Assembly: GCA_029565065.1 (NCBI GenBank)
Contig: JAKQOW010000131.1
Span: 6,901 to 70,900 of the forward strand
Length of the DNA: 64,000 bases
Source: Acidobacteriota bacterium
GTDB taxonomy: Bacteria > Acidobacteriota > JAAYUB01
Reading direction: 5' to 3'
Positions within the stretch are counted from its first letter, which is position 1; every line of letters begins with the position of its first letter. A model generated the notes under the pieces. It was not told the DNA's origin, made no database searches, and worked only from the letters and a program-made list of their open reading frames with translations. Positions 25,707-39,153 of the stretch are shown piece after piece. The position numbers and the translations under genes are program-made.

Positions 25707-25713
25707 CGGCGGT

Positions 25714-26124: not shown

Positions 26125-28152
26125 TTACGGGAGCAGGCGCCGGTCCTTCAGCATCAGGAGCAGGTGGGCGGCGGTCCAGCTGAAGTGGGATGCCCGCAGA
26201 CCGTGCCCGGTGACGGGATCGTAGTTTTCGCGAAGCGGCGCGGGGGAATCGGCGGCGCCCCGCAGGTTGGCCAGGAGCTGTTCGGCCAGCGCATCCGCTT
26301 CCTGTCGGAAGCCGCAGCGGCGCAGGCCGGCCAGACCGAAGAAGGCCTGATCCAGCCAGACGGGCCCCCGCCAGTAGCCGTCCAGGGCCGCGGCGGGATG
26401 GTCGGCGGACAGCGTGGGGAAGGGAAGATGGGTGCGGAACCGGGTCGGGTCCATCAGCGCGTCGCGAACCCGCTCGGCTTGGCGCCGGGTGGCGACGCCG
26501 GCCCACAGGGGGATCCAGGCCTCCGGGCCCGGCGCCCGGACGAACGCCCCGTCCGCGAGGCGGATGTCGGCGAACAGCCCGGCTGCCTCGTCGAACATCC
26601 GGCTGCGGATGAGCCGCCGGAGCCGTCCGGCTTCCCCCGCCAGCCGATCGGCATCGCCCCGCCGCCCGATGAGCCGGGCCAGCCGGGCCAGGCAGCGCTT
26701 CTCGGCGTACAGGTAGGCGTTCAGATCCGCCGACGCCTGGTCCAGCGTCCAGGCGCCGGGACCGTGGGCGACGAGCCGTGCGTCGTCGAAGCGGGCGGCG
26801 TTGTCCATGCCGCTCTCCCATTTGGCGGCGGTCAGGTCGTCGCAGGTGGAGCCGTACTCGCACAGTCCGTCGCGATCACGGTCCCGCTGCGCGTACCACC
26901 AACGGTGGTATCGCCAGAGCCGCGGATACACCTCGCGCACGAACTCCCGGTCGCCGGTGGCGGCGTACACCGCGGCCACGGCCCAGGCGGCGAGCGGCGG
27001 CTTGGTGTTGAGCCAGTTGTCCTGGGAACTGTCGGCGAACACGCAGTCGGCCACCATGCCCGCGTCGTTCTGCCGCTCCAGCATGGCCCGGACCTGCGAG
27101 CGGGCCAGCTCCGGTTCAAACTCGGCCAGCGCGGCGGCGTGCTTCCACGAGTCCCAGGCCCAGAATCCGTTGAAGTACCCCACCGCGCCGGAAGGGATGA
27201 CGCCGTCGTGGCGCAGTGCGCCCGCCGGGGCGCGCCAGTTGTTCACCAGCGTCATCACCGCCTTGACCGCCAGGCGGCGGCCGGAGTCGCGGCGCAGAAG
27301 CGGTGCATCGCCGCCGAGCGCCCGGTCCAGATAGCCCTGCCAGCGTTCCCGGTTGCGGGCGAACGCGGCGCCGGTGTCGGCCAGCGCCGCATCGGCCACG
27401 GCGAGTTCGGGATCTCCACCGGACGGCGACCGCACCAGAACCAGGGCGAGCGCGGTGGCGGCACTGCCGCCGGGCGCGATCACTGTGGGCGCCGGGAAGT
27501 CGGCACGGTAGCCGGTGGAACCGCCGCCGGTGACGCGCCACGCCGTCGCGTCCGGCGGCACCACGTGCAGCGCCCCGGCGCCGGCGCCCCAGACCGCGCG
27601 AATGCTCGCATCGCCTGTCTCCAGCCGGGCGGCCGCGTCGAGGAGTTCGCCTTCCCATCGCCAGAGGACGGCCAGCGGTGACGTCGACCGATTGGTCACT
27701 TCCGCCCGCACCAGGGCCGTCGCCGCCGACGCGAAGAACAGTTCCAGCCTAACCGTTGTGCGGTCCGTCTCCGTCGACAGCCGCAGCAGTCCCGGGTAGA
27801 CCGTGCGGATCATCACCGCCGGTTGCGGGGGCAGGAGCGGGGAGCCGGTGGCGGCGTCCACCGGCACGAACCGGGCGATCGAGCGGCTGAGCCACCGGCC
27901 CGGTTCCGTGAGATACGGACCGGCGAAACCGACGGCGGTTCCATCCGCCGGGATGGCGTAGCCGTGCCAGGCTCCGCAATCAAACAGGCAGCCGGGCGCC
28001 GGTTCATCGGCGCAGCACGGCGTCTGGCTCAGGTCGAGCACATCGGCGAAGTGGCTCCAGGTGGCGGTGGGGGCAGTCGCGGGACGTGGGGCCGCCGCGG
28101 CCATCGCTGCCAGGAGCAACCAGCCCATAACCATCGAACGGACACGAGCCAT
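26125..28152 (-). CDS. Secreted (alpha/alpha)6-barrel glycoside hydrolase, GH63 / GDE_C (amylo-alpha-1,6-glucosidase)-like
   Basis: It has a signal peptide and a catalytic-region motif WESGMDNAARFD (GMDNS-type). A Trp/Tyr-rich C-terminal barrel (YWRGPVWLDQAFF) is typical of GH63/GH37/GDE_C. Confidence 0.75.
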   Translation of the reverse strand: MARVRSMVMGWLLLAAMAAAAPRPATAPTATWSHFADVLDLSQTPCCADEPAPGCLFDCGAWHGYAIPADGTAVGFAGPYLTEPGRWLSRSIARFVPVDAATGSPLLPPQPAVMIRTVYPGLLRLSTETDRTTVRLELFFASAATALVRAEVTNRSTSPLAVLWRWEGELLDAAARLETGDASIRAVWGAGAGALHVVPPDATAWRVTGGGSTGYRADFPAPTVIAPGGSAATALALVLVRSPSGGDPELAVADAALADTGAAFARNRERWQGYLDRALGGDAPLLRRDSGRRLAVKAVMTLVNNWRAPAGALRHDGVIPSGAVGYFNGFWAWDSWKHAAALAEFEPELARSQVRAMLERQNDAGMVADCVFADSSQDNWLNTKPPLAAWAVAAVYAATGDREFVREVYPRLWRYHRWWYAQRDRDRDGLCEYGSTCDDLTAAKWESGMDNAARFDDARLVAHGPGAWTLDQASADLNAYLYAEKRCLARLARLIGRRGDADRLAGEAGRLRRLIRSRMFDEAAGLFADIRLADGAFVRAPGPEAWIPLWAGVATRRQAERVRDALMDPTRFRTHLPFPTLSADHPAAALDGYWRGPVWLDQAFFGLAGLRRCGFRQEADALAEQLLANLRGAADSPAPLRENYDPVTGHGLRASHFSWTAAHLLLMLKDRRLLP

Positions 28153-28289
28153 CGGGGACTCCGAACGGATGTCAGATCGTCATGGCATGTCATCATCCGG
28201 TAATCCCGTCCAAAAATCAAGTCGCCGACGGCACGATACTAGTCACGGATGAGACGCTCCTGTTTTATGCTTCCATTAAAGTTTTATGA

Positions 28290-28318
28290 TTGTACCTTCC
28301 ATGTAATTTTGTTAAAAT
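28290..28318 (+). promoter_or_regulatory. Candidate sigma-70 promoter TTGTAC-N17-TAAAAT upstream of the hydrogenase operon
   Basis: A manual hexamer match in the AT-rich intergenic region, about 70 nt upstream of the ATG at 28387. Confidence 0.3.
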
Positions 28319-28386
28319 GCCGACTCTGTTTTACAGATGGTCGGTACCACGCGGCATTTAGGAATACTCGCTCGGAGCAGTAGTAT

Positions 28387-29838
28387 ATGGATATGCAGAC
28401 GACGGTACTGTTGGTCATCGGCGTCCCGCTGCTCGGGTCGCTGCTGATCCCGCTGCTGGGCTGGTTCAAGCTGCCGAAGGTGACAGGCTACGTCTGCGTG
28501 GCGCTCATCGGCGCCGCCCACGTCCTGTCCTGGACGCTTCTCGGCCCCGCCCTGGGCGGGATCACCACCCACTGGAGCAAGCCGCTGTACGAATGGGCCA
28601 GCTTCAGCCTGACATTCGACGCGCTGGCCGCCTTCATGGCGTTCACCGCCTCCCTGATCGCCACGCTCATCGCCATCTACTCGCTGGGTTACATCGAGCA
28701 CGGCGAGGACGAGCCGGAGTACTATTTCGTCGTGACCCTCTTCCTGGGCGCGATGATGGGGCTGGTGTTCTCCTCCAACCTGTTGTTCCTCTACTTGTTC
28801 TGGGAGATCTCGGCGCTGGCCTGCTGGCGGTTGATCGGCTACTTCCGGGAGCCCGACTACATCTGGAAAGCCGACAAGGCGTTTCTGGTGACCTTCGGCG
28901 GCGCGGTGTTCATGCTGTTGGGATTCGCCCTGGTGTTCGCTCAGTACGGCACGTTCGAGCTCGCCGAGCTGCGCGGCCAGGAGATCGGACCGGTCGCCCT
29001 GCTCCTCATCCTGCTCGGCGTGTTCTCCAAGAGCGCCACGGTGCCGCTGCACACGTGGCTGCCCGATGCCGGCGTGGCGCCCTCCACCATCACCTCGCTG
29101 CTGCACGCCGCCATCCTCGTCAAGATCGGCCTGTACGGCTTTGCCCGCATGTTCGCCAACGGCATGGTGATCCCGCCGGCCTGGGAGACGGGCATCCTCA
29201 TCGCCGCCCTGGTCAGCGCGTTCGTGTCGGCCTGCGCAGCGCTGCGTGAAACCAACATCAAGCGCATGCTGGCCTACTCGACGGTGAGCCAGATCGGCTA
29301 CACGTTCCTGGGGCTGGCCGCGTTCACCCATTTCGGGTACATCGGCGCCCTGCTGTACATCATGGCCCACGGCCTCGCCAAGGGCGGCCTCTTCCTCTGC
29401 GCCGGCATCATCGAGCACGGCACTCACACCAAGGACATGACCAAGATGGGCGGGCTCATCCAGAAGATGCCCATCACGGCTTTCTGCTACATCGTCTGCG
29501 CCCTGAGCATCGCGGGCATCCCGCCCATGGCCGGGTTCTTCTCCAAGTACTTCGTCATCTCCGGCCTGGTCGAAGGCGGACACACCTACATTGCCGGCCT
29601 GGCGATCCTGACCGCGGTGGTCACGCTGCTGTACATGCTCAAGAGCTTCCACGTGATCTTCATGGGAGCGCCGCGCGGCGAGTCCCACCACGAGGGTTCG
29701 CCCGTGATGGTGGGCGTGGTGGCCGTGCTGGCGGTGCTCACCGTCATCGTGGGAGCCCTGATGCATCTGCCCTTCGAACTGGCCCGCGTGGCCGATGGGG
29801 AACGCCTGGTCCAGGTGTTCACCTTCCTGTGGAGGTAA
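28387..29838 (+). CDS. Hydrogenase membrane subunit, MrpD/NuoN/NuoM-like antiporter module (1 of 3)
   Basis: It has 14 TM helices and the conserved antiporter motifs (WLPDAG...; TxxxLLHAAxLVKxGxYG; AYSSxxQxGY). Confidence 0.85.
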   Translation: MDMQTTVLLVIGVPLLGSLLIPLLGWFKLPKVTGYVCVALIGAAHVLSWTLLGPALGGITTHWSKPLYEWASFSLTFDALAAFMAFTASLIATLIAIYSLGYIEHGEDEPEYYFVVTLFLGAMMGLVFSSNLLFLYLFWEISALACWRLIGYFREPDYIWKADKAFLVTFGGAVFMLLGFALVFAQYGTFELAELRGQEIGPVALLLILLGVFSKSATVPLHTWLPDAGVAPSTITSLLHAAILVKIGLYGFARMFANGMVIPPAWETGILIAALVSAFVSACAALRETNIKRMLAYSTVSQIGYTFLGLAAFTHFGYIGALLYIMAHGLAKGGLFLCAGIIEHGTHTKDMTKMGGLIQKMPITAFCYIVCALSIAGIPPMAGFFSKYFVISGLVEGGHTYIAGLAILTAVVTLLYMLKSFHVIFMGAPRGESHHEGSPVMVGVVAVLAVLTVIVGALMHLPFELARVADGERLVQVFTFLWR

Positions 29839-29841
29839 GCC

Positions 29842-31659
29842 ATGAACGCTGACGTCCTGTTGTTGCTACCCATCATCGTGCCCCTCGTCTGCGCCGGGCT
29901 GATCCTCCCCATCTTCCGCAAGCGGAGCGTGGCGATCGCCTGGCTCGCCCTGCTGGCCGTGGTGGTCTCCGCCGCGGCGTTCCTGCTGGTCGCCGGCGGA
30001 CCGGCGGTCCAGTTCGCCATCCCCTGGATGGAGCTGTTCCGGCTGGAGTTCAGCCTGACGGGCTGGAAGGCGTTTCTCCTCTTCTTCGTGTTCGCGTTCC
30101 AGTTGATGACCGCGGTGTACTGCCTGGGGGCGATCCGCCGGGTAGCCAAGCCGCTGCTGTTTCTCGCCTTCGTCCTGGTCGCCTTCGCCGCCGCCTGCGG
30201 CGTCATCCTGACCGACAACCTGCTGTTCCTGCTCATCGCCTGGGAGGTCTTCCTGGTGGCCCTCTACGCGGTGATCCACAGCTCCGGCGACGGGGCCGAG
30301 GGTGTGGCCATGAAGGCCCTGGTGATCGGCGGGAGCAGCGACTTCCTGATGATCCTCGGGCTGATGCTCTACTTCGCCGTCTCCGGCGGCATGGCCATGG
30401 ACGCCCACCTGCCGGTGGCGCAGAGCACCGCATCGTTCCTCTCCTTCCTGTTGCTGTTTCTCGGCGCCGGCGCCAAGGCGGGCATGTTCCCGTTCCATAC
30501 CTGGATCCCCGACGCGGCCGAGGTGATGCCCGCCGCCGGTTTCGCGGCCCTGCCGGCCTCGCTGGAAAAGGTGCTGGGGATCTACTTCCTGTTCATCGTG
30601 AGCTACCAGATGTTCGCGCTGAACGAGGCGGCCCGGATCGTGATGTACGCGTTCGGCCTGATCACGGTGTTCGTGTCCATCGTGCCGGCACTGGTGGAGG
30701 AGAACCTGCGCAAGGTGCTCGCCCTGACGGCGATCTCCCCCGTCGGCTTCATGGTCGCCGGGCTGGCCACGTCGGAAGTCGCCGGCATGGCCGGCGCCCT
30801 GCTGTACATGCTCACCCACGCCACCTACAAGTCCTGCATGTTCTTCGCCGTGGGCCAGTTTGAGGAGCACGCCGGCGGCGCCCGCCTGTCATCGCTGCAG
30901 GGGATCGCCCGGCTGCTGCCGTTGTCGGGCCTGGGCTTCCTGCTGGCGTTCACCGCCGCCGTCTCGCTGCCGCCCACCGGCGGCTTCATCGCCAAGGATT
31001 TGATCTTCGAAGGGGTGGTGGAGCGCGGCCATTACCTGGTGTTCCTCGCGCTGTGGATTGGAGCCATCCTGAACATGGCCGTATTCTGCAAGGTCATCGC
31101 CGTCCTGTGGGGACGCGGCGAGGACCGGCCGGTGCCCGCCGCGGCGACTCTGACGGCGCCGGTGCTGGTGCTGGGAATCGGCGCGGTGCTGACGGGCTGG
31201 ATCTTCACCCTGGCCGCGCCGGTGTTCGGGGCCGTCCTCCCCGTGGAGCACGCCGGCTGGATCGCCGCCGTGTGGCACCTCTCCCCGCTGACGGTGGCCT
31301 CCTACTCCATCTACCTGTTCGGCGCCCTGCTGTTCTTCGCCGCGCGCGCGCGCGCCGCGGAGCCCGCGGCGACCTTCGCCTCGCTCCGGCAGTCGCCGGT
31401 GCTGGGCCGCACACTGGAGCTGGCCCGCCAGAAGAAGTTCGACGGTTACGAGATCGGCGTGAAGGTGGTCAACTGGATCGCCGAGTTGGTCTTCCGTCGG
31501 TTCGAGCGGCTCATCGACGAGGTCGCCGACTGGATCATCCGGACCGGCCGCGCCTTCTCCGGCGCCCTGCTCAGCGCCCCGCACGACGGCACCTACAGCA
31601 CCTACCTGGGCTGGGTGATCGTGGGGTTGGCGATCGTAGCCGCTCTGATTTTTGTGTAA
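29842..31659 (+). CDS. Hydrogenase membrane subunit, NuoL/MrpA/MrpD-like antiporter module (2 of 3)
   Basis: The 605-aa polytopic protein has the TWIPDAAE motif and a C-terminal extension, resembling NuoL/HyfB-type subunits. Confidence 0.85.
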   Translation: MNADVLLLLPIIVPLVCAGLILPIFRKRSVAIAWLALLAVVVSAAAFLLVAGGPAVQFAIPWMELFRLEFSLTGWKAFLLFFVFAFQLMTAVYCLGAIRRVAKPLLFLAFVLVAFAAACGVILTDNLLFLLIAWEVFLVALYAVIHSSGDGAEGVAMKALVIGGSSDFLMILGLMLYFAVSGGMAMDAHLPVAQSTASFLSFLLLFLGAGAKAGMFPFHTWIPDAAEVMPAAGFAALPASLEKVLGIYFLFIVSYQMFALNEAARIVMYAFGLITVFVSIVPALVEENLRKVLALTAISPVGFMVAGLATSEVAGMAGALLYMLTHATYKSCMFFAVGQFEEHAGGARLSSLQGIARLLPLSGLGFLLAFTAAVSLPPTGGFIAKDLIFEGVVERGHYLVFLALWIGAILNMAVFCKVIAVLWGRGEDRPVPAAATLTAPVLVLGIGAVLTGWIFTLAAPVFGAVLPVEHAGWIAAVWHLSPLTVASYSIYLFGALLFFAARARAAEPAATFASLRQSPVLGRTLELARQKKFDGYEIGVKVVNWIAELVFRRFERLIDEVADWIIRTGRAFSGALLSAPHDGTYSTYLGWVIVGLAIVAALIFV

Positions 31660-31696
31660 GCCCGTCGACGGGAACGTAACGCCTCTGAGGTAGCTT

Positions 31697-33136
31697 ATGA
31701 TTACGAATATCGGATTGATGCTGCTGCTGCCGCTGGCCGCCGTCATCCTGATGCCGTGGGTGTCCCGGCTGCACCGGCGCGCCGCGGACGTCCTGGCCGC
31801 GCTGGCCGGCCTCGGCCTCGTCGGCCTGTGTTTGCGGTTCATCCCGCTGCGCGGGGAAACCCTGACGCTGCGGGTGCTGAACACGCAGTTCTCCGTGGAC
31901 GGCCTGAGCCTGCTGTTTCTCGTGGTGGTCAACGTCGTCGCGTTCTTCTGCATCCTCTACTCCATCGACTACATGAATCACTACGACGGCCGGGGCAAAT
32001 TCTACGCGCTGCTCCTGCTGATGGTGCTCGGCCTGAACGGCGTGCTGCTGGTGCGCGACCTGTTCAGCCTGTACGTGTACCTGGAGATCGTCTCCATCGC
32101 CTCCTACGTCCTGGTGGCGTTCGGCCTGAAGTGGGACGGCATCGAGTCGGCGCTCAAGTACCTGCTGCTGTCGGTAGTGGCCACGGGCCTGATCCTCGTC
32201 GGCCTGGGGATCATGTACCTGAACCTGGGCACGCTGGAATTCGCCGAGCTCAAGCTGCTGCTGGCCGCGGGGAGCGGGCCCAACACCGTCTTCCTGCTGG
32301 CGGCCGCGCTGTTCATCGCCGGCTTCGGGCTGAAGGCGGCGATCATGCCGTTCCACGCCTGGCTGCCCGACGCCCACCCGTCGGCGCCGGCGCCCATCTC
32401 GGCGATGCTGAGCGGCGTGGTGATCAAGGTGGCCGGCGTCTATGCCCTGACCCGGCTCTTCTTCGACATCTACCCGTCGCCGGCCCGGGTCCTGAACGTA
32501 TTCCTGATCCTGGGTGTCGCCTCGATGATCGGCGGCGCGCTGATCGCCTATTTCCAGAGCGACATCAAGCGGATGTTCGCCTACTCCAGCATCAGCCAGA
32601 TCGGCTACATCCTCATCGGCCTGGGCCTGGGCAACCCGCTGGGCCTGATCGGGGCGCTGTTCCATGTGCTCAATCACGCCCTGTTCAAGTCCCTGCTGTT
32701 CTTGAACAGCGGCGCCCTGCAGTACCGGACTCACACCCGCGATATGAACGAGATGGGCGGCCTGGAGCACCGGATGCGCGTCACCGGGATCACCAGCATC
32801 TTCGGAACGCTGTCGATCGCCGGAGTGCCACCGTTCAACGGGTTCTGGAGCAAGCTGTTCATCATCCTGGGCGCGCTGGCCGCCAAGCAGTACGTCGTGG
32901 CGGTGCTGGCCATTTTCCTGAGCGTCTTCACCCTGGGCTATTTCCTGCTCATGCAGCGACGGGTCTTCTTCGGCAAGCTCAACCTGAAGTGGCAGGATCT
33001 CAAAGAAGTGCCGCTGACCATGTCGCTGGCGATGATCTTCCTGGCGGCGCAGTGCCTGCTGGTGGGCATTTTCTTCAACGAGGTGCTCCGGTACCTGGTG
33101 GAACCCGCGGCTGCCATTCTGCTGGGAGGGAAGTGA
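31697..33136 (+). CDS. Hydrogenase membrane subunit, MrpD/NuoN-like antiporter module (3 of 3)
   Basis: It has 14 TM helices and the motifs AWLPDAHP, AMLSGVVIKVAGVY and AYSSISQIGY. Confidence 0.85.
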   Translation: MITNIGLMLLLPLAAVILMPWVSRLHRRAADVLAALAGLGLVGLCLRFIPLRGETLTLRVLNTQFSVDGLSLLFLVVVNVVAFFCILYSIDYMNHYDGRGKFYALLLLMVLGLNGVLLVRDLFSLYVYLEIVSIASYVLVAFGLKWDGIESALKYLLLSVVATGLILVGLGIMYLNLGTLEFAELKLLLAAGSGPNTVFLLAAALFIAGFGLKAAIMPFHAWLPDAHPSAPAPISAMLSGVVIKVAGVYALTRLFFDIYPSPARVLNVFLILGVASMIGGALIAYFQSDIKRMFAYSSISQIGYILIGLGLGNPLGLIGALFHVLNHALFKSLLFLNSGALQYRTHTRDMNEMGGLEHRMRVTGITSIFGTLSIAGVPPFNGFWSKLFIILGALAAKQYVVAVLAIFLSVFTLGYFLLMQRRVFFGKLNLKWQDLKEVPLTMSLAMIFLAAQCLLVGIFFNEVLRYLVEPAAAILLGGK

Positions 33137-33137
33137 C

Positions 33138-33632
33138 ATGCTGCTCTACGCTTCACTCGTCTTGCTGGTCATCTTTGCCATCCTGGTCTGCTTCTTCCGG
33201 GATCTGCTGTACGCGGCCGTGTCGCTGGCGCTGGCGAGCGTGATGCTGTCGGTGGTGCTGTTCCAGTACGGAGCCAACATCGCCGCGGTGTTCGAGCTCA
33301 GCGTCTGCGCCGGACTGATCACGGTGCTGTTCGTCTCCACGGTGAGCATGACGAAGGACTCGGACCAGGCGAACGAATCCCGACTGCCGGCCTACTTCCT
33401 TCCCTTCATCCTGGTGCTCTTCCTGGGCCTGGACTTTTTCCTGGTGAAGTGGCTGGCGGGCTCGACCCTCGTGGGCGCCGGCTTTCCGGCGACTCCCGGC
33501 CTGACCTTTCAGAACGCGTTCTGGGGACAGCGCATGACCGATATCGTCGGCCAGGTGAGCCTGATTCTGGTGGGCGTGTTCGGCATCCTAACCATCATGC
33601 GGGCGTTGTCCGAGAGGAGGAAACATGACTGA
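33138..33632 (+). CDS. Small polytopic membrane subunit, MrpB/MnhB-like
   Basis: The 164-aa product has 4-5 TM helices. It is translationally coupled within the operon, in the position typical of Mbh/Mrp B-like subunits. Confidence 0.6.
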   Translation: MLLYASLVLLVIFAILVCFFRDLLYAAVSLALASVMLSVVLFQYGANIAAVFELSVCAGLITVLFVSTVSMTKDSDQANESRLPAYFLPFILVLFLGLDFFLVKWLAGSTLVGAGFPATPGLTFQNAFWGQRMTDIVGQVSLILVGVFGILTIMRALSERRKHD

Positions 33633-33933
33633 GGACGTCATCCTGCTGCTGCTCAGCGGCCTGCTGCTGTTCATGGTGGGCGTATATTTGATGTTCGCCT
33701 ATCGCAATCTGCTCCGGATCATCCTCGGCGTCGAGGTCATGGCCAAGGGCGTCACGCTGGTCCTTCTGGCTGCGGGCGTCTTTCGGGGCAGCGTGGAATA
33801 CATCCAGGCCCTGATCGTGACCTTCATCATCGTCGAGACCATCCTGGCCGCGGTGGTGCTGGCGCTCACCTTTGTCGCCCAGCGGATTTACAACTCCCTC
33901 GACATCCGCAATCTGTCGAAGTTGAAGGGGTAA
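33625..33933 (+). CDS. NuoK/MrpC-like membrane subunit
   Basis: The 102-aa product has 3 TM helices and a conserved Glu in TM (GVEVMAKG...IIVETI), as in NuoK/MnhC. Confidence 0.7.
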   Translation: MTEDVILLLLSGLLLFMVGVYLMFAYRNLLRIILGVEVMAKGVTLVLLAAGVFRGSVEYIQALIVTFIIVETILAAVVLALTFVAQRIYNSLDIRNLSKLKG

Positions 33934-33937
33934 TGCC

Positions 33938-34270
33938 ATGGACCTGAACATTCTGCTCTCTCCGCCGGTCGCGTTTGTCACCTTCCTGGGACTCAGCGCC
34001 CTGCTGTACCTGGTGGGCCGGTTGATCGGCGCCCGGCCGAATCCGGAGCCGGGCAAGGCCGAAACCTACGCCTGCGGTGAGAATTTCCACCCCGACAAAT
34101 TCACCTTTGCGTACCGCCGCTTCTTCATTGCGGCGATCTTCTTCACCGTCATGCACGTGGCCGTGCTCACCATCGCCACGGTGCCGGGTGGCGCGCTGGC
34201 CTTCCGGGCGTTGGGCTACCTGGCGGTGATCGCGCTGTCGGTATCCATCCTGTTCGTGGATTTTGACTAG
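33938..34270 (+). CDS. NuoA-like membrane subunit
   Basis: The 110-aa product has 3 TM helices and the YACGE motif characteristic of NuoA-type subunits. Confidence 0.6.
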   Translation: MDLNILLSPPVAFVTFLGLSALLYLVGRLIGARPNPEPGKAETYACGENFHPDKFTFAYRRFFIAAIFFTVMHVAVLTIATVPGGALAFRALGYLAVIALSVSILFVDFD

Positions 34271-34291
34271 ACTTCTGCAAGGAGTGCTGCC

Positions 34292-34726
34292 GTGTTCAAG
34301 AAACTGGTGAAGTGGGCCCGGGTCAAGTCCCCGTGGATCCTGCATTTCAACTCCGGGGCGTGCAACGCCTGCGATATCGAAATTTTGGCGTCGCTGATGC
34401 CCCATTACGATCTGGAGCGGTTCGGCGTCATGCTCAAGGCGTCACCCCGCCACGCGGATGTGCTGATCTGCAGCGGCCCGGTCTCCAAGCAGATCGCCCC
34501 GCGGCTGCGGCGGATCTACGAGCAGATGCCGGATCCCAAGTTTGTCGTCGCGGTGGGTGCTTGCGCATGCAGTGGCGGCGCGTTCCGGGGATGTTATAAT
34601 GTAATGGGCGGTATAGATTCTGTAGTGCCGGTCGCCGCCTATGTTCCGGGTTGCCCGGTCAAGCCGGAAGCGCTCATCGACGGCGTGGCCAAACTGTTGG
34701 GCGAACTGAACAAAGAGTCGGCCTGA
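34292..34726 (+). CDS. [NiFe]-hydrogenase group 4 small subunit (NuoB-like, proximal 4Fe-4S)
   Basis: The four Cys ligands are in the conserved pattern NSGACNACD...CSGP...GACACSGG...VPGCP. Confidence 0.9.
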   Translation: MFKKLVKWARVKSPWILHFNSGACNACDIEILASLMPHYDLERFGVMLKASPRHADVLICSGPVSKQIAPRLRRIYEQMPDPKFVVAVGACACSGGAFRGCYNVMGGIDSVVPVAAYVPGCPVKPEALIDGVAKLLGELNKESA

Positions 34727-34741
34727 GGGCAGGAGGAAACC

Positions 34742-35206
34742 ATGAAATTCGATTATGAAAAGGAGCTGCAGACGCTCTTTCCCGCGGGTGAGGCGCGCAA
34801 GACCGCCGAGCGGCGGTACTGGGTCAACGTGCCCCCGGGGGAGCTGCACGACGCCGTCCGCACGTTGCGCGGCAAGCTGGGCATCGTGCATCTGTCCACC
34901 ATCGTGGGCGAGGATCTGCGCGACGCGTTCCTGAACAGCTATATTTTTTCCGGCGAAGTGGTGGTGACGATCTGCGTGCGCATTGACCGGGACAAGCCGG
35001 AAGTCCCCTCGCTGGCACCCGTTGTCGACGGCGCCATGGTCTACGAGCGGGAAATCCATGACCTGCTGGGGATCGTCCCCGTGGGGCACCCCGACCTCCG
35101 CCGGCAGATCCTGCCGGAGGACTGGCCGGAGGGCGTGTACCCGCTGCGCAAGGATTACGTCGTCGCCCAGGGACCGACCGAGACTGAAAAGAAGGAGGAG
35201 GCTTAA
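34742..35206 (+). CDS. Hydrogenase NuoC-like (30 kDa) subunit
   Basis: It has NuoC fold motifs (...VYEREIHDLLGI..., ...PLRKDY...). It sits between the small and large subunits. Confidence 0.85.
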   Translation: MKFDYEKELQTLFPAGEARKTAERRYWVNVPPGELHDAVRTLRGKLGIVHLSTIVGEDLRDAFLNSYIFSGEVVVTICVRIDRDKPEVPSLAPVVDGAMVYEREIHDLLGIVPVGHPDLRRQILPEDWPEGVYPLRKDYVVAQGPTETEKKEEA

Positions 35207-35207
35207 C

Positions 35208-36407
35208 ATGGCTGAAAGCACCATCAAGATCCCCGTCGGCCCTCAGCACCCGTTCCTCAAGGAGCCGTGCAAATTCGAATTCGAGATCAGCGGTGAGGAG
35301 ATCCGGGGCGCCAAGATCCGGATGGGCTACAACCACCGTGGCATGGAAAAGGCGTGCGAAGACCGCAACTATTACCAGTGTCTGTACCTGTTGGAGCGCA
35401 TCTGCGGCATCTGCTCCCATTCGCACACGACGGCCTACATCCAGGCGGTGGAGAGCCTCCTTGGACTCGAGCTCCCCAAGCGCGGCCTGTACCTGCGGAC
35501 GCTGGTCTGCGAACTGGAACGGCTCCACAGCCACCTGCTGTGGCTGGGGGTGGCGGCCCACGAGGTGGGCTTCGACACTCTGTTCATGTACACCTGGCGC
35601 GACCGCGAGCTGGTGATGAACATCCTCGAGGAGATCAGCGGCAACCGGGTCAACTACGCGATCAACACCGTCGGCGGCGTGCGGCGTGACATCACCGCGG
35701 AGCAGCGCAAGAAGATCCTCGACTTGACCAAGGTGGTGCGGGAGCGGGTGGCTTATTACGCGAACATCGGCACCAACGAGCCCAGCTTCATGGCCCGGAT
35801 CCAGGGCGTGGGCAAGATGAGCACGGAGCGGGCCATTGAAAAATGCGCCGTCGGCCCCTTCGCCCGGGCCAGCAATGTGGACCGGGACGTGCGGCGGGAC
35901 GATCCGTACGCCGCGTACGGGGACCTGGAGTTCAAGGTCATCACGTCGGACAGCTGCGACATTCTTGGCCGGGTGGTCGTCCGGGTGCTGGAGATGGTGG
36001 AATCCTGCAAGATGATCGACCAGTTGCTCGACAAGTTGCCGGAAGGCGAGATCGCCGTCCAGAAGGTGCCGCGGCGCGTGCCGGCCGGAGCCGCCGTCAG
36101 CCGCTACGAGGCGCCGCGCGGCGAGGACGTCCACTACGTCAGGTCCAACGGCACCGACAAGCCCGAGCGGGTCAAGGTGCGCGCGCCCACGCTGTGCAAC
36201 CTCGAGGCGGCGGCTGAATCGGTGGTGGGCTCCTATGTCGCCGACATCCCCATCGCCATCGCCTCCATTGATCCGTGCTTCTCCTGCACCGACCGCACGA
36301 CGGTCCTGCTGAACGACCGCCGGCGCGGCGTCCGGATGGCCACTTGGGAAGAGCTGCGGCGCCACGGCGTGGACTGGTACCGCCAGAACAAGGGAATTCG
36401 CTTCTAG
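35208..36407 (+). CDS. [NiFe]-hydrogenase group 4 large subunit (NuoD-like, Ni-Fe ligating Cys retained)
   Basis: The N-terminal L1 motif RICGICSHSH (CxxC) and the C-terminal L2 motif DPCFSCTDR are present. Both Cys pairs are retained, unlike true NuoD. It has an AGGAGG RBS. Confidence 0.9.
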   Translation: MAESTIKIPVGPQHPFLKEPCKFEFEISGEEIRGAKIRMGYNHRGMEKACEDRNYYQCLYLLERICGICSHSHTTAYIQAVESLLGLELPKRGLYLRTLVCELERLHSHLLWLGVAAHEVGFDTLFMYTWRDRELVMNILEEISGNRVNYAINTVGGVRRDITAEQRKKILDLTKVVRERVAYYANIGTNEPSFMARIQGVGKMSTERAIEKCAVGPFARASNVDRDVRRDDPYAAYGDLEFKVITSDSCDILGRVVVRVLEMVESCKMIDQLLDKLPEGEIAVQKVPRRVPAGAAVSRYEAPRGEDVHYVRSNGTDKPERVKVRAPTLCNLEAAAESVVGSYVADIPIAIASIDPCFSCTDRTTVLLNDRRRGVRMATWEELRRHGVDWYRQNKGIRF

Positions 36408-36419
36408 CAGAGGGAGTGT

Positions 36420-37388
36420 ATGGAAACCGTCAAGGTGATGCTGTATGTCCTGGTCTTTCCAGGATTCCTGTTCCAGATGATCTATTCAACCTATCTGGAA
36501 TGGGTGGACCGGAAGCTGTATGCCCGCATGCAGAACCGGCGCGGGCCCCTCTACACCGGCTGGAGCGGCGTGCTGCAGCCGGTGGCGGACATCGTCAAGC
36601 TGTTCGCCAAGGAGGATGTCACGCCGGCCGCTTCCGACAAGTTCATGTTCAACATCTTGCCGCTGGTGGCCCTGGCCTCGGCATGCACCGCAGGCCTCTA
36701 CCTGCCCGTATGGCACCTGACCGGGTACAATTCGTTCCAGGGCGACCTGATCGTGATGGTCTACCTGCTGGCCATGCCCTCGTTCGTGCTGTTCCTGGCC
36801 GGCTGGTTCTCCGTGAGCCCGTTCAGCCTCATTGGCGCCACCCGCGTGCTCACCCAGCTGTTCGCCTACGAGGTGCCGTTCTTCCTGGCCCTGCTGACCC
36901 CGGCGGTCGTGGCCGGCAGCTGGAAGATCGCCGATATCGCCAAGTACCCCTGGGCGAGCGGCAACTGGTGGGTGATCCCCCTGCAGGTGCTGGCGTTCAT
37001 CGTCGCCGTGCTGGCGCTGCAGGCCAAGCTGGAACGCGTGCCGTTCGACATCCCCGAGGCCGAGACCGAGGTGGTCGCCGGGCCGCTCACCGAGTACAGC
37101 GGCAAGAAACTGGCGGTGTTCCGGATCCAGAAAGACATTTCCATGTACGCCGGCTCCGCCCTGATCGCCGCGCTCTTTCTGGGCGGCTTCGGCGGCGGCC
37201 TGTACTTGGGCGCGCTCCAACTGGTGCTCAAAACCCTGCTGGTGGTGGCTCTGCTGAGCGTGATCCGGGGCGCCTGCGCCCGCATCCGCATCGACCAGAT
37301 CGTGTCCTTCAGCTGGCGTTACCTGGCGCCCATGAGCATCGTCCAATTCCTGATCGTGCTGCTGCTGAAGGGCGGAGGAGTGATCTAG
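36420..37388 (+). CDS. Hydrogenase membrane subunit NuoH-like (EchB/HyfC/MbhM-like)
   Basis: It has 8 TM helices and a conserved NuoH N-terminal pattern (...ERKLLARMQNRRGP..., here DRKLYARMQNRRGP). Confidence 0.9.
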   Translation: METVKVMLYVLVFPGFLFQMIYSTYLEWVDRKLYARMQNRRGPLYTGWSGVLQPVADIVKLFAKEDVTPAASDKFMFNILPLVALASACTAGLYLPVWHLTGYNSFQGDLIVMVYLLAMPSFVLFLAGWFSVSPFSLIGATRVLTQLFAYEVPFFLALLTPAVVAGSWKIADIAKYPWASGNWWVIPLQVLAFIVAVLALQAKLERVPFDIPEAETEVVAGPLTEYSGKKLAVFRIQKDISMYAGSALIAALFLGGFGGGLYLGALQLVLKTLLVVALLSVIRGACARIRIDQIVSFSWRYLAPMSIVQFLIVLLLKGGGVI

Positions 37389-37390
37389 CC

Positions 37391-37786
37391 ATGAAGAAAG
37401 TCGGACTGCTGTTGCCTGAAATGATGAGCCACCTGGCCCACAAGCCGGTTACCCGCCTCTATCCGTTCGAGAAGGTGACCGCGCCCGAGGGCTTTCGCGG
37501 CACGCCCCGGTTCAAGCCGAACAACTGCATCGGCTGCAAGGCCTGCGTTCGCGATTGCACCGCCGAAGCCATCGAGATCGACGTCCACAAAATTGATCCG
37601 CCCCCCGGCTCGCCCGAGGGGACCAAGCCGACGAAGAAGATGGTCTGCACCATCTACCTCGATCGCTGCGTGCACTGCGCCCGCTGCGTCGAAGTCTGCC
37701 CCAAGGACGCCCTGTACATGGACACGGAGTTCGAGGTGGCCAACTTCACCCGCGACGCGCTGAAAATCGTGCAGGAATCGGATTGA
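37391..37786 (+). CDS. 2x[4Fe-4S] ferredoxin subunit NuoI-like (EchF/MbhN-like)
   Basis: It has two CxxCxxCxxxCP motifs (CIGCKACVRDCTAEA ; CVHCARCVEVCP). Confidence 0.9.
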   Translation: MKKVGLLLPEMMSHLAHKPVTRLYPFEKVTAPEGFRGTPRFKPNNCIGCKACVRDCTAEAIEIDVHKIDPPPGSPEGTKPTKKMVCTIYLDRCVHCARCVEVCPKDALYMDTEFEVANFTRDALKIVQESD

Positions 37787-38313
37787 TGGACCGTCCGGCG
37801 GACCGCCTGCGCGCCCTGCTGGACGCGGCGCGCCGGGCAGACCGGAAAGTGGTTGTGTTGGGAATTGGGAACGAGCTCCTGGGCGACGACGCCGTCGGCG
37901 ATCGCGTCGCCCGGGAGCTCGCGCCGTTTAACGACCACCGTTTTGAGGCTATCCCCGCCGGCAACGCACCCGAGAACGGCGCCTACATGGTCAGTCGGGC
38001 CGCCCCCGATGTGCTGATCATCATCGACGCGGCCGGGCCGGCCGGCGGAGCAGGGGAAGGCTCCGACAGCGCCGCGCCGTGGGATTTCTATCCTGCCGAT
38101 TCACTCGACACGTTCTGCCATTCCACCCATTCGGTGCCCCTGAGCATGCTCGTGAGCGTCTGGCGGCAGGAGCGGCCGCATCTCGATGTGCGGTTCATTG
38201 GCATCGCCATCCGCGAGACTTCGTTCCTGGCGCCGCTGTCCTCGTCGGTGGACGCCATCCGCGCCGAGATCGTGGGAGTGTTCCGGTCGGCGGTGGGGGA
38301 TGGTAAACAGTGA
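37786..38313 (+). CDS. hycI: Hydrogenase maturation endopeptidase (HycI/HybD family)
   Basis: The motif VVLGIGNELLGDDAVG is present with a downstream conserved His (HSTHS). Its ATG overlaps the NuoI-like stop. It is the last gene of the hydrogenase operon. Confidence 0.85.
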   Translation: MDRPADRLRALLDAARRADRKVVVLGIGNELLGDDAVGDRVARELAPFNDHRFEAIPAGNAPENGAYMVSRAAPDVLIIIDAAGPAGGAGEGSDSAAPWDFYPADSLDTFCHSTHSVPLSMLVSVWRQERPHLDVRFIGIAIRETSFLAPLSSSVDAIRAEIVGVFRSAVGDGKQ

Positions 38314-38575
38314 ACGGTGAACGGTGAACAGTGAAGAGATAGGAGATAGGGGATAGGAGATTGGAGTGTCGAGTATAGGTGGGTTCGGGATTCGTAATCG
38401 TAATATGTAATCGTGATCGTAATCGAGGCTCAACCCTCGACCCTCAACCCTCAACCCTCGACCCTCAACCCTCAACCCTCGACCCTCAACCCTCAACCCT
38501 CGACCCTCGACCCTCGACCCTCAACCCTCGACCCTCAACCCTCAACCCTCAACCCTCAACCTCCACCCCCAATCC
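38305..38575. repeat. Heptanucleotide-periodic microsatellite tract of about 38 units, in successive blocks: (AACRGTG)x4, (AGGAGAT)x4, a CGTAAT/CGTGAT hexamer block, then about 19 copies of (R)ACCCTC
   Basis: Direct reading gives aacagtg aacggtg aacggtg aacagtg aagagat aggagat aggggat aggagat ... gtaatcgtgatcgtaatcg aggctc (aaccctc/gaccctc)x~19. It is intergenic between the hycI stop and the convergent NSS operon. Confidence 0.85.
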
Positions 38576-38778
38576 TTTTGTTCTCATCCGTGCGATCGGC
38601 GACTCGAGGCCTGGCCGCAGCGACTATCTTCAGTGGCGCGCGTTCGATGAACGCACGCCAGAAGTACCTCGGGCTAGAGGCCGCTAAGTACAGCGGGCCT
38701 CCGGTGAACGCTGCCAACTGGCGGGCAAATCTGTTGTGACGAAATATATCTGGGGCGAAGCGGGACAGGTGGCCGCGG

Positions 38779-39045
38779 TTATCGCACCACGGCGAAGATG
38801 ATGAAGAACACCAGCGCCAGGTTGATGGAGGCGATCCAGCTGTAGAAGAGGGGGCCCGTCCGGCCGGATTCGGCCCGGGTCACAGTGCGGTACCGATTGA
38901 GGTAGCTCGGGATCATCACCCGCAGCCAGATGAAGCTCACCCGCTCGCCGCGCCGGCGGAGCGCCTCGTAGAGGCACACGGCCGTCCCGACGGCCCACAG
39001 CGAGCACATCACACCCAAGCTCAGAAGAACTATTTGCGGGAACAT
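38779..39045 (-). CDS. Small membrane protein downstream of the NSS transporter (possible accessory/small subunit)
   Basis: The 88-aa product runs from ATG 39045 (MFPQIVLL...) with an AGGAGG RBS. It has two TM helices. It is co-oriented 108 nt downstream of the NSS gene. Confidence 0.5.
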   Translation of the reverse strand: MFPQIVLLSLGVMCSLWAVGTAVCLYEALRRRGERVSFIWLRVMIPSYLNRYRTVTRAESGRTGPLFYSWIASINLALVFFIIFAVVR

Positions 39046-39153
39046 GGCGGGCCTCCTGCACACCGTATCGTCGTCAAACCGATAGTTTGGCCAACCCGGC
39101 TCGGATAGCAGCGCTTGGGTCCAGTCGCCCGGCAAGACGGTGTGAGGGAGTCG

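What the first reader, a model, noticed from the sequence alone, without database searches (positions are those of the whole stretch)
28387..38313. Twelve-gene group 4 energy-converting [NiFe]-hydrogenase with three Mrp/NuoL-type antiporter modules
The operon order is antiporter-like x3, MrpB-like, NuoK-like, NuoA-like, small subunit, NuoC-like, large subunit, NuoH-like, NuoI-like, HycI protease. The large subunit retains both Ni-Fe ligating Cys pairs (RICGICSHSH ... DPCFSCTDR). This is therefore a true hydrogenase, not a complex I fragment. Three antiporter modules resemble Hyf/Mbh-Mbx-type respiratory complexes, but no formate dehydrogenase, hyp maturation genes or electron-donor (ferredoxin/NADH module) genes are present in the window. 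The physiological partner is not evident locally.
Basis: partly seen in the sequence, partly recalled or inferred. Interest (0 to 1): 0.6.

Follow-up and report, generated by a model that had tools for sequence, protein, structure and literature searches.

The report
Complex-I-shaped membrane [NiFe] hydrogenase operon
This is a real twelve-gene operon in an uncultured acidobacterium for a hydrogen-making or hydrogen-using membrane enzyme that has the full eleven-subunit build of respiratory complex I but keeps the nickel-iron site; the type is common in genome surveys but has never been studied biochemically.

Summary
Twelve tightly packed genes on the + strand (28387-38313) encode three antiporter-like subunits; NuoJ/MbhD-, NuoK- and NuoA-like subunits; a hydrogenase small subunit; NuoC; a [NiFe] large subunit with all four Cys ligands and a cleavable C-terminal tail; NuoH; NuoI; and a HycI-type protease.

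The large subunit is group 4. Its closest solved relative is Pyrococcus MbhL (46% identity). HydDB could not be run.

The second antiporter-like subunit is a NuoL with a lateral helix (AlphaFold pLDDT 89; best fold matches are full-length NuoL chains). The NuoH and NuoA homologues are nearer to complex I than to Mbh or FHL. There is no Mrp E/F/G sodium module, FdhF or HycB.

The same gene order recurs in 54 of 59 suitable related loci from many bacterial phyla, and all catalytic and proton-channel residues are invariant. Neighbours there are hyp genes, H+-pyrophosphatase and ATP synthase, never a dedicated donor module.

Most likely function: a ferredoxin:H+ oxidoreductase coupled to ion translocation, direction unresolved. 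It is the bacterial counterpart of the archaeal 'Hfo' and Asgard complex-I-like hydrogenases. Verdict: a new member of a known but uncharacterised kind.

The parts
28387..29838 (+). g1: antiporter-like subunit, NuoL/MrpA-type core (483 aa, TM1-14 only, no lateral helix)
   Evidence: Pfam Proton_antipo_M 2e-67 and Proton_antipo_N. Best PDB hit is Nqo12 at 2.4e-57, followed by MrpA. E140, K215, H240, H328, K332 and K387 are invariant in 63 sequences.
29842..31659 (+). g2: NuoL-type antiporter-like subunit with C-terminal lateral amphipathic helix and anchoring TM helix (605 aa)
   Evidence: The NCBIfam NuoL profile is matched over positions 5-610 of 615. The AF2 model has pLDDT 89.3, a helix at 535-577 and a TM helix at 585-604. 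The top Foldseek matches are full-length NuoL chains, TM about 0.8. The NuoL-specific Asp positions are present: D167, and D386 (E in most relatives). The lateral-helix residues D534, Y536, H581, G583 and Y588 are invariant.
31697..33136 (+). g3: MbhH/MrpD/NuoM-type antiporter-like subunit (479 aa)
   Evidence: Best PDB hit is MbhH (6cfw_H) at 3e-81 and 277 bits; the next hit scores 189 bits. E130, K213, K244, H327, K331 and K386 are conserved.
33138..33632 (+). g4: NuoJ/MbhD-like small membrane subunit (164 aa)
   Evidence: Pfam Oxidored_q3 2e-9 (above its cut-off) and a weak MbhD hit. PDB hits are MbsD 5e-5 and MbhD 5e-4. E53 aligns with E. coli NuoJ E55 and is invariant in 70/70 sequences.
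33625..33933 (+). g5: NuoK/MrpC-like subunit (102 aa)
   Evidence: Pfam Oxidored_q2 9.5e-15. E37 (= NuoK E36) and E71 are conserved in 61-62 of 62 sequences.
33938..34270 (+). g6: NuoA-like subunit (110 aa)
   Evidence: Pfam Oxidored_q4 1.9e-6. The only PDB hits are complex I NuoA chains, e.g. 8qby_A at 2e-5.
34292..34726 (+). g7: hydrogenase small subunit, NuoB-like, one [4Fe-4S] cluster (144 aa)
   Evidence: Pfam Oxidored_q6 4e-31. C24, C27, C91 and C121 are invariant in 77 sequences. The CxxC motif aligns with HyfI, not with the tandem CC of NuoB.
34742..35206 (+). g8: NuoC-like subunit (154 aa), not fused to the large subunit
   Evidence: Pfam Complex1_30kDa 1.4e-27.
35208..36407 (+). g9: [NiFe] large subunit (399 aa) with L1 motif RICGICSHSH, L2 motif DPCFSCTDR and a 36-residue C-terminal extension
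   Evidence: Pfam Complex1_49kDa plus NiFeSe_Hases. PDB hits: MbhL 1.3e-95, HycE 1.4e-83, Nqo4 3e-58. C66, C69, C357 and C360 are invariant in 81 sequences. The extension aligns with the cleaved HycE tail.
36420..37388 (+). g10: NuoH-like membrane subunit (322 aa)
   Evidence: Pfam NADHdh 3e-85. PDB hits: E. coli NuoH 2.7e-44 and Nqo8 1.3e-43, against HycD and MbhM at about 1e-25. The acidic loop and channel residues are conserved, corresponding to NuoH E157, D213, E218, E220 and E228.
37391..37786 (+). g11: NuoI-like 2x[4Fe-4S] ferredoxin-type subunit (131 aa), the probable electron entry or exit point
   Evidence: Pfam Fer4 families. Eight Cys in two CxxCxxCxxxC motifs are conserved in 73-74 of 74 sequences.
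37786..38313 (+). g12: HycI-type large-subunit maturation endopeptidase (175 aa)
   Evidence: PDB hits: E. coli HycI 2e85/2i8l at 1.1e-9 and T. kodakarensis HycI 5zby at 1.8e-7. D35/D36, D82 and H116 are invariant in 45 sequences. A homologous gene lies directly downstream in 58 of 66 loci.

Best explanation
The operon encodes an energy-converting group 4 [NiFe] hydrogenase built on the complete 11-subunit core of respiratory complex I, plus its own maturation protease.

Proposed mechanism:
1. Reduced ferredoxin (or a similar low-potential carrier) docks on the NuoI-like subunit.
2. Electrons pass through that subunit's two [4Fe-4S] clusters to the single cluster of the NuoB-like small subunit.
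3. From there they reach the Ni-Fe site in the NuoD-like large subunit, which sits where complex I has its quinone pocket. Protons are reduced to H2 there.
4. The redox and protonation changes are passed through the NuoH/NuoA/NuoJ/NuoK 'E-channel' to three antiporter-like subunits clamped by the lateral helix of the NuoL-type subunit.
5. Ions are thereby moved across the membrane. These are probably protons, because the Mrp E/F/G sodium module is absent.

The reaction should be reversible, so the same machine could use the membrane potential to reduce ferredoxin with H2.

The HycI-type protease cuts off the 36-residue tail of the large subunit after metal insertion by Hyp proteins encoded elsewhere in the genome.

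Shown here: subunit identities, ligand and channel residues, the NuoL-type fold, conserved synteny, and the absence of donor modules. Inferred: ferredoxin as partner, the ion species, the stoichiometry and the physiological direction.
For: - All twelve genes were identified by Pfam, NCBIfam and PDB searches.
- The four Ni-Fe Cys, the four small-subunit Cys and the eight NuoI-like Cys are invariant or nearly so across 74-81 homologues from many phyla.
- The small subunit carries a hydrogenase-type CxxC, not the NuoB tandem CC.
- The large subunit is closest to MbhL (46% identity) and HycE/HyfG (38-40%) and far from NuoD (29%). The family is monophyletic in 91/100 NJ bootstraps.
- The C-terminal tail is homologous to the cleaved HycE tail. 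The HycI homologue has its D/D/H ligands.
- All three antiporter-like subunits keep the TM5 Glu, TM7 Lys, TM8 His/Lys, TM11 His/Lys and TM12 Lys.
- NuoK E37 and E71, NuoJ E53 and the acidic residues of NuoH are conserved.
- g2 has a NuoL fold with a lateral helix.
- Gene order is conserved in 54/59 loci.
- Recurrent neighbours in relatives are hypA/B/C/D/E/F, membrane pyrophosphatase and F-type ATPase genes. There is no Fdh, CODH, NuoEFG or HycB.
- The literature proposes ferredoxin coupling for HydDB 4g and 4d enzymes and for the archaeal 11-subunit Hfo (PMC5037454, PMC7886697).
Against: - There is no biochemical evidence for any member of this family in the literature I could search (PMC7886697 says subgroup 4g is uncharacterised).
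- Ferredoxin as partner is inferred only from the absence of another module.
- Thermodynamics (my estimate from standard potentials): ferredoxin to H+ yields at most about 20-40 kJ per H2, enough for roughly 1-2 H+. The membrane arm offers four putative pathways. Forward pumping through all of them, as in complex I, is therefore unlikely.
- hyp genes are not in the ~79 kb examined (the 64-kb window plus ~6 and ~9 kb beyond its ends), so maturation capacity in this organism is unverified.
- HydDB classification was not possible.
Confidence: 0.75

Rival explanations
1. The complex is the same, but its physiological job is the reverse reaction. It uses the proton-motive force, through up to four inward proton paths, to drive the uphill reduction of ferredoxin by H2. 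This would supply low-potential electrons for biosynthesis or reductive pathways, as proposed for Eha/Ehb, Ech in methanogens and the archaeal Hfo.
For: - Loh et al. propose exactly this for the 11-subunit Hfo (PMC7886697).
- A complex-I-size membrane arm (three intact antiporter-like subunits plus an E-channel) is oversized for the small free energy of ferredoxin-dependent H2 evolution. It fits a pmf-consuming reductase.
- Some relatives have ATP synthase or H+-pyrophosphatase genes next to the operon; these could generate the needed gradient.
Against: - Hyf and the Mrp-linked group 4b/4d enzymes also carry several antiporter-like subunits although they evolve H2.
- The family occurs in many fermentative lineages (Omnitrophota, Elusimicrobiota, Bacillota, Planctomycetota), where authors infer H2 evolution (PMC8542988, 10.1101/765248).
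- Nothing in the window indicates an H2-dependent autotrophic pathway.
Confidence: 0.3
2. It is the hydrogenase half of a formate hydrogenlyase-like or CO-oxidising respiratory complex (HydDB 4a/4b/4c type). The formate dehydrogenase or CODH and the connecting ferredoxin-like subunits would be encoded elsewhere in the genome.
For: Three antiporter-like subunits recall Hyf. The large-subunit tail and the protease are HycE/HycI-like.
Against: - No FdhF, HycB/HyfA, CooF or CooS homologue was found in the window, or in the ~6 kb (upstream) and ~9 kb (downstream) examined beyond it.
- None of these is conserved beside the operon in 80 loci.
- NuoC and NuoD are separate genes, unlike the fused HycE/HyfG.
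- The large subunit is nearer to MbhL than to HycE/HyfG.
- The conserved unit always ends with the protease.
Confidence: 0.07
3. It is not a hydrogenase but an 11-subunit complex-I-like, Ehr- or Mbx/Mbs-type oxidoreductase that reduces quinone, polysulfide or another acceptor.
For: - All 11 complex I core subunits are present.
- NuoH and NuoA are closest to complex I.
- Public annotation names several subunits 'NADH-quinone oxidoreductase'.
Against: - All four Ni-Fe Cys ligands and the flanking L1/L2 residues are invariant. E. coli NuoD has E, G, V and D at those positions.
- The small subunit has the hydrogenase-type CxxC.
- A dedicated HycI protease and a cleavable tail are present.
- hyp genes are adjacent in about 10 related loci.
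- The Ni-Fe site occupies the position of the quinone pocket (PMC3144371).
Confidence: 0.02

Closest known systems
Hfo, the 'Fpo-like' 11-subunit [NiFe] hydrogenase of Bathyarchaeia (HydDB subgroup 4g; Loh et al. 2021, PMC7886697), and the Asgard 'complex I-like' group 4 hydrogenase (Valentin-Alvarado et al. 2024, PMC11291895)
   Same: - A Ni-Fe large subunit with intact L1/L2 motifs sits inside the same 11 core subunits as Nuo/Fpo.
- There is no NuoEFG/FpoF input module and no Mrp sodium module.
- The L-type subunit has a full lateral helix.
- Ferredoxin coupling is presumed, and no biochemistry exists.
   Different: - This one is bacterial and belongs to a family spread over many bacterial phyla.
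- The gene order is permuted: three antiporter-like genes, then J and K, precede A-B-C-D-H-I, instead of A-B-C-D-H-I-J-K-L-M-N.
- A HycI protease gene is part of the unit.
- Orthology with the archaeal clades could not be tested because no reference sequences were available to me.
Pyrococcus furiosus membrane-bound hydrogenase Mbh (HydDB 4d; PDB 6CFW)
   Same: - It has the closest solved large subunit (46% identity, 324 bits).
- It has the closest solved homologue of the third antiporter-like subunit (MbhH, 277 bits).
- It is ferredoxin-dependent and needs no extra donor module. It also has an MbhD-like small membrane subunit.
   Different: - Mbh has one antiporter-like subunit plus the MrpE/F/G-like MbhA-C sodium module. 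This operon has three antiporter-like subunits and none of those.
- This operon has a NuoL-type lateral helix and a recognisable NuoA.
- Its NuoH is much closer to complex I NuoH than to MbhM (155 vs 94 bits).
E. coli hydrogenase 4 / formate hydrogenlyase-2 (Hyf) and FHL-1 (Hyc; PDB 7Z0S), HydDB 4a
   Same: - Hyf also has three antiporter-like subunits.
- The large subunit has a homologous cleavable C-terminal tail and a HycI-type protease.
- The small subunit has the same CxxC motif.
   Different: - There is no FdhF or HycB/HyfA electron-input module.
- NuoC and NuoD are not fused.
- Separate NuoJ, NuoK and NuoA homologues replace HyfE.
- Large-subunit identity is only 38-40%.
Respiratory complex I and its 11-subunit forms (Nuo without EFG, NDH-1, Fpo-like)
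   Same: - The same 11 core subunit families are present.
- The A-B-C-D-H-I gene block is retained.
- A NuoL-type lateral helix is present.
- The Glu/Lys proton-channel residues and E-channel residues are conserved.
   Different: - The Ni-Fe site is retained in place of the quinone pocket.
- The small subunit has the hydrogenase-type cluster motif.
- A maturation protease is present.
- The J-K-L-M-N part is rearranged. One antiporter-like subunit is MbhH-like and another is a truncated NuoL/MrpA-type core.

Membership tests
Group 4 (energy-converting) [NiFe] hydrogenases | Large subunit with L1 (RxCGxCxxxH) and L2 (DPCxxCxxR) motifs supplying four Cys ligands | tested here: met
   RICGICSHSH at residue 64 and DPCFSCTDR at residue 355. 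The four Cys are invariant in 81 sequences.
Group 4 (energy-converting) [NiFe] hydrogenases | Large subunit closer to group 4 large subunits than to NuoD or to groups 1-3 | tested here: met
   Bit scores: MbhL 324, HycE 284, Nqo4 201, MbsL 185, FrhA 66, group 1 below 50. In the NJ tree the family groups with MbhL and HycE/HyfG, away from NuoD.
Group 4 (energy-converting) [NiFe] hydrogenases | NuoB-like small subunit with one [4Fe-4S] cluster, plus NuoH-like and antiporter-like membrane subunits in one operon | tested here: met
Group 4 (energy-converting) [NiFe] hydrogenases | HydDB classifier assignment and subgroup (4a-4i) | not testable with these tools
   HydDB and its reference set are not available here. 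Related Omnitrophota and Bathyarchaeia enzymes are reported as 4g, a polyphyletic bin (PMC8542988, PMC7886697, PMC13582414).
Group 4 (energy-converting) [NiFe] hydrogenases | H2 evolution or uptake activity | not testable with these tools
   This needs enzymology.
Mbh-type, Mrp-linked hydrogenase (HydDB 4d) | MbhL-like large subunit and MbhH-like antiporter subunit | tested here: met
   6cfw_L at 1.3e-95 and 6cfw_H at 3e-81 for g3.
Mbh-type, Mrp-linked hydrogenase (HydDB 4d) | Mrp sodium module (MbhA/B/C = MrpE/F/G homologues) in the operon | tested here: not met
   All 12 genes are accounted for by other families. No MrpE/F/G hit appears in Pfam or NCBIfam.
Formate hydrogenlyase / Hyf (HydDB 4a) | FdhF plus a HycB/HyfA-type ferredoxin subunit, and a fused NuoC-NuoD large subunit | tested here: not met
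   No FdhF or HyfA homologue is present in the window or beside related operons. NuoC and NuoD are separate genes.
Respiratory complex I, 11-subunit core | Homologues of NuoA, B, C, D, H, I, J, K and three L/M/N-type subunits, one with a lateral helix | tested here: met
Respiratory complex I, 11-subunit core | Ni-Fe ligands lost, quinone pocket present, NuoB tandem-Cys N2 motif | tested here: not met
   The four Cys are retained where E. coli NuoD has E, G, V and D. The small subunit has CxxC like HyfI.
Hfo-type 11-subunit hydrogenase (Loh et al. 2021) | Ni-Fe large subunit within the 11 Nuo/Fpo core subunits, without an input module or Mrp module | tested here: met
   The definition is taken from PMC7886697.
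Hfo-type 11-subunit hydrogenase (Loh et al. 2021) | Fpo/Nuo gene order A-B-C-D-H-I-J-K-L-M-N | tested here: not met
   The order here is L'-L-M-J-K-A-B-C-D-H-I-protease. Relatives L042 and L041 have the rotated order J-K-L-M-(N)-A-B-C-D-H-I.
Hfo-type 11-subunit hydrogenase (Loh et al. 2021) | Large subunit inside the archaeal 4g-6 clade | not tested
Ehr / Mbx / Mbs (hydrogenase-related, no Ni-Fe site) | Absence of the Ni-Fe Cys ligands | tested here: not met
   The ligands are present and invariant. This family is excluded.

The most novel reading that the evidence does not exclude
This widespread bacterial family may be a living example of the enzyme postulated by Moparthi and Hagerhall (2011): an 11-subunit complex-I-type machine that still carries the Ni-Fe site. 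It would be a closer link between hydrogenases and complex I than Mbh.

It has a complex-I-like NuoH/NuoA/NuoL membrane arm joined to an Mbh-like catalytic head. Because ferredoxin-to-proton electron transfer cannot pay for four pumped protons, it would have to work with a different stoichiometry or direction from complex I. For example, it could act as a pmf-driven H2:ferredoxin reductase, or some antiporter-like subunits could let ions back in.

A structure and H+/2e- measurements would then bear directly on how long-range coupling in complex I arose.
Probability: 0.3. Interest if true: 0.7.

Novelty: new member of a known kind. Interest (0 to 1): 0.42.

Why it matters
How complex I evolved from membrane hydrogenases, and how its long membrane arm is coupled to chemistry at the former Ni-Fe/quinone site, are long-standing questions.

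This operon type combines an intact hydrogenase head with a full complex-I-style arm: three intact antiporter-like subunits, a lateral helix, and NuoA/H/J/K channel residues. It is conserved in gene order across many bacterial phyla.

It is therefore a natural experimental system for measuring what such an arm does when driven by a very small redox span. The carriers are abundant anaerobes in digesters, sediments, peat and guts, so the enzyme probably also contributes to environmental H2 turnover.

For this particular window, however, the result is an already annotated member of a family seen in many metagenome studies. It is not a new kind of system.

Tried and rejected
- HydDB could not be run. 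As a proxy I used PDB sequence searches and an NJ tree with MbhL, HycE, HyfG and NuoD. The first tree script timed out.
- One paper look-up failed because the search terms were too short.
- I looked for a dedicated electron-donor module, hyp genes or fdh. I used precomputed Pfam on the source contig, tblastn with Hyp, HppA and E. coli Hyf/Nuo proteins, and about 6 kb (upstream) and 9 kb (downstream) of extra sequence beyond the window ends. None was found.
- I considered an Mbh/Mrp sodium-pumping design. Rejected: there are no MrpE/F/G homologues.
- I considered FHL/Hyf. Rejected: there is no FdhF or HycB, NuoC and NuoD are unfused, and large-subunit similarity is lower.
- I considered an Ehr or complex I-like quinone reductase. 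Rejected on the invariant Cys ligands, the protease and the CxxC small subunit.
- Promoter and terminator scans around the operon gave fewer hits than shuffled controls. Rfam found nothing in or next to the operon.
- The lower GC of the operon was considered as a sign of transfer. GC3 stays high and the AT skew is typical of membrane proteins, so it is not evidence of transfer.
- Literature searches for biochemical or cryo-EM work on this type returned nothing.

Full report
**What is there.** The window is high-GC DNA (about 67%). From 28387 to 38313 the + strand carries twelve ORFs separated by -8 to +37 nt, each with a plausible ribosome-binding site. The gene calls on the public source contig are identical. 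That contig is JGI metagenome 3300009669, Ga0116148_1000023, 160 kb. The same sequence is in NCBI MAG GCA_035348115.1, where the proteins are labelled Acidobacteriota bacterium.

Pfam and NCBIfam assign the genes as follows:
- three Proton_antipo_M proteins (483, 605 and 479 aa);
- Oxidored_q3 (NuoJ), with a weak MbhD hit;
- Oxidored_q2 (NuoK);
- Oxidored_q4 (NuoA);
- Oxidored_q6 (NuoB);
- Complex1_30kDa (NuoC);
- Complex1_49kDa plus NiFeSe_Hases (NuoD-like large subunit);
- NADHdh (NuoH);
- a 2x[4Fe-4S] NuoI-like protein;
- a last protein with no Pfam hit.

That last protein matches E. coli HycI (2e85/2i8l, E=1e-9) and T. kodakarensis HycI, with the Asp/Asp/His ligands aligned. One label needs changing: gene 4 is NuoJ/MbhD-like rather than MrpB-like. 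A few start codons also need adjusting.

**It is a true hydrogenase.**
- The large subunit carries RICGICSHSH and DPCFSCTDR.
- The four Cys, the flanking Arg/His/Asp/Pro/Arg, the four Cys of the small subunit and the eight Cys of the NuoI-like subunit are invariant or nearly so in 74-81 homologues from related loci.
- At the four ligand positions E. coli NuoD has E, G, V and D. The small subunit has the CxxC of HyfI, not the tandem CC of NuoB.
- After the L2 motif comes a 36-residue tail that aligns with the tail HycI removes from HycE. The protease gene follows in 58 of 66 loci with enough sequence.
- Against solved structures the large subunit scores 324 bits with MbhL, 284 with HycE, 201 with Nqo4, 185 with MbsL and under 70 with group 1 and 3 enzymes.
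- In an NJ tree the family is monophyletic (91/100) and weakly sister to MbhL (60/100). Identities are 46% to MbhL, 38-40% to HycE/HyfG and 29% to NuoD.
- HydDB could not be run. Published HydDB calls for similar enzymes of Omnitrophota and Bathyarchaeia are '4g', a bin described as loosely clustered and polyphyletic (PMC5037454, PMC8542988, PMC7886697, PMC13582414).

- Gene 2 matches the NuoL profile end to end. It has the NuoL-specific Asp positions.
- Its C-terminus looks like TM15, then an amphipathic stretch, then a last TM helix. An AlphaFold model built on 58 homologues (pLDDT 89.3) shows a 43-residue helix (535-577) followed by a terminal TM helix.
- The best Foldseek matches of that model are full-length NuoL/NdhF/ND5 chains, with TM-score about 0.8 over about 635 columns. 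Several lateral-helix residues are invariant.
- Gene 1 is a NuoL/MrpA-type core without this extension.
- Gene 3 is the MbhH orthologue (277 bits, next hit 189).
- Gene 6 hits only complex I NuoA chains.
- Gene 10 is much closer to E. coli and T. thermophilus NuoH (155 and 153 bits) than to HycD or MbhM (about 95 bits).
- There are no MrpE/F/G homologues, no HycB/HyfA and no FdhF. NuoC is not fused to NuoD.

The enzyme thus joins an Mbh-like catalytic head and proximal antiporter subunit to a complex-I-like NuoH/NuoA/NuoL frame.

**The membrane arm looks functional.** All three antiporter-like subunits keep the TM5 Glu, TM7 Lys, TM8 His or Lys, TM11 His/Lys and TM12 Lys. These are essentially invariant across 59-67 sequences each. 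The NuoK-like subunit keeps both membrane Glu residues. The NuoJ-like subunit keeps the Glu that aligns with NuoJ E55. The NuoH-like subunit keeps the residues that align with NuoH E157, D213, E218, E220, E228, K274, R291 and R293.

**Distribution and context.**
- The closest genomes are Acidobacteriota MAGs, including Holophaga and Mesoterricola (73-77% identity). At 55-62% identity the family is found in Planctomycetota, Omnitrophota, Elusimicrobiota, Bacillota, Spirochaetota, Myxococcota, Actinomycetota, Margulisiibacteriota, Verrucomicrobiota, NC10 and others.
- In 54 of 59 loci with room for the whole operon, the genes detected are in the same order as here. All eleven structural genes are detected in 42 of them.
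- Informative variants exist. L042 (Syntrophomonadaceae) has J-K-L-M-N-A-B-C-D-H-I, which is the nuo order rotated. L041 (an archaeal MAG) has the same order with one fewer antiporter-like gene. Both have an L subunit 39% identical to E. coli NuoL. L065 has only B-C-D-I-protease.
- Clustering the flanking ORFs of the 80 loci shows the recurrent neighbours: membrane pyrophosphatase (13 loci), hypA and hypF (9 each), hypB (7), hypD/E (6), hypC (4) and F-type ATPase genes (4-6). There is no formate dehydrogenase, CODH, NuoEFG or HycB-type gene.
- In this window the neighbours are unrelated to any of these: a GH63-like hydrolase, DsrC and an SNF transporter. They are not conserved beside the operon elsewhere.
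- No hyp, fdh or PFOR genes occur in the window, nor within about 6 kb beyond its start or about 9 kb beyond its end.

**How it most likely works.**
1. Electrons from reduced ferredoxin enter at the NuoI-like subunit.
2. They pass through its two clusters and the small-subunit cluster to the Ni-Fe site, where H2 is formed.
3. The reaction is coupled through the NuoH/A/J/K channel and the three antiporter-like subunits to ion translocation.

Ferredoxin is inferred because Mbh-type enzymes need no further donor subunit and none is conserved here. Protons rather than sodium are inferred from the missing Mrp E/F/G module.

From standard potentials (my estimate, not a tool result), ferredoxin to H+ gives at most about 20-40 kJ per H2. 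That is enough for one or two protons, not the four of complex I. Either the stoichiometry is lower, or some subunits return ions, or the enzyme runs in reverse. Running in reverse would mean using the membrane potential to reduce ferredoxin with H2, as Loh et al. proposed for Hfo (PMC7886697). I cannot decide the direction from sequence.

**Comparison with what is known.**
- Moparthi and Hagerhall (2011, PMC3144371) stated that NuoA and NuoJ seemed absent from hydrogenases, and that all 11-subunit complex I forms lack the C-terminal Cys pair. They postulated an 11-subunit ancestor that may still have had the Ni-Fe site.
- Loh et al. (2021) described the archaeal Hfo as the first hydrogenase with the same 11 subunits as Fpo/Nuo.
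- Valentin-Alvarado et al. (2024, PMC11291895) called an Asgard group 4 enzyme with a full lateral helix novel.
- Bacterial members have been reported in MAG studies only as 'Mbh-Mrp type' or '4g, Mrp-linked' (10.1101/765248, PMC8542988, PMC6349859).

The present operon is thus a bacterial member of a recognised but biochemically uncharacterised kind. NCBI already annotates its large subunit as a nickel-dependent hydrogenase. My searches found no enzymology or structure for this type.

**Verdict.** Interest is moderate. The family is a good target for structural and bioenergetic work on the hydrogenase-to-complex-I transition. This instance is an ordinary, already annotated member.

Noticed in passing
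window 20653-20837 (+): A cobalamin riboswitch (Rfam RF00174, 120 bits, full length) lies directly upstream of a BtuF/FecCD-type ABC transporter operon at about 20865-23640. My mechanical ORF call at 20652 overlaps the riboswitch and is probably too long.
   Followed up: partly
window 23728-26040 (-): A DsrC with both C-terminal cysteines (...CKLAGLPKPDGCV) sits next to a 213-aa Pfam-less hydrophobic protein and an HdrD/DsrK-like Fe-S/CCG protein. This is a DsrMK-DsrC-like trio 2.3 kb upstream of the hydrogenase operon. It hints at sulfur-based energy metabolism in this acidobacterium. The trio is not found beside the operon in related loci.
   Followed up: partly
L042 2951-12494; L041 4693-12978: Close relatives of the large subunit (58-60% identity) sit in operons ordered J-K-L-M-(N)-A-B-C-D-H-I, which is the nuo order rotated. 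The L subunit there is 39% identical to E. coli NuoL. This arrangement is even more complex-I-like than the one in the window.
   Followed up: partly
L065 9051-12074; L037 3613-4815: A Dehalococcoidales MAG has a 58%-identical large subunit with only small subunit, NuoC, NuoI-like subunit and protease, and no membrane subunits nearby. A Fibrobacterota MAG has an orphan large-subunit copy. These may be soluble or differently anchored derivatives.
   Followed up: no
L014, L015, L018, L023, L024, L028, L039, L041, L049, L050, L053, L068, L073 (flanks of the operon): A membrane-bound H+/Na+-pyrophosphatase gene lies immediately beside the hydrogenase operon in 13 loci. F-type ATP synthase genes follow it in 4-6 loci. 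This suggests a conserved ion-gradient gene neighbourhood.
   Followed up: partly
window 47585-56221: A sigma-54 activator (-) is divergent from an AAA_2 ATPase (748 aa). The ATPase is followed by three sizeable proteins (337, 706 and 371 aa) with no Pfam hit on record. Their function is unknown.
   Followed up: no
window 13264-16899 (-): Two radical SAM proteins (one with a SPASM domain) sit next to a methyltransferase. This could be a peptide-modification cluster. No precursor peptide was looked for.
   Followed up: no
window 28001-42000: GC is 0.62-0.67 here against 0.68-0.71 in the flanks, with strongly negative AT skew over the operon. GC3 stays at 0.77-0.95. This looks like the composition of membrane proteins rather than clear evidence of recent transfer.
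   Followed up: partly
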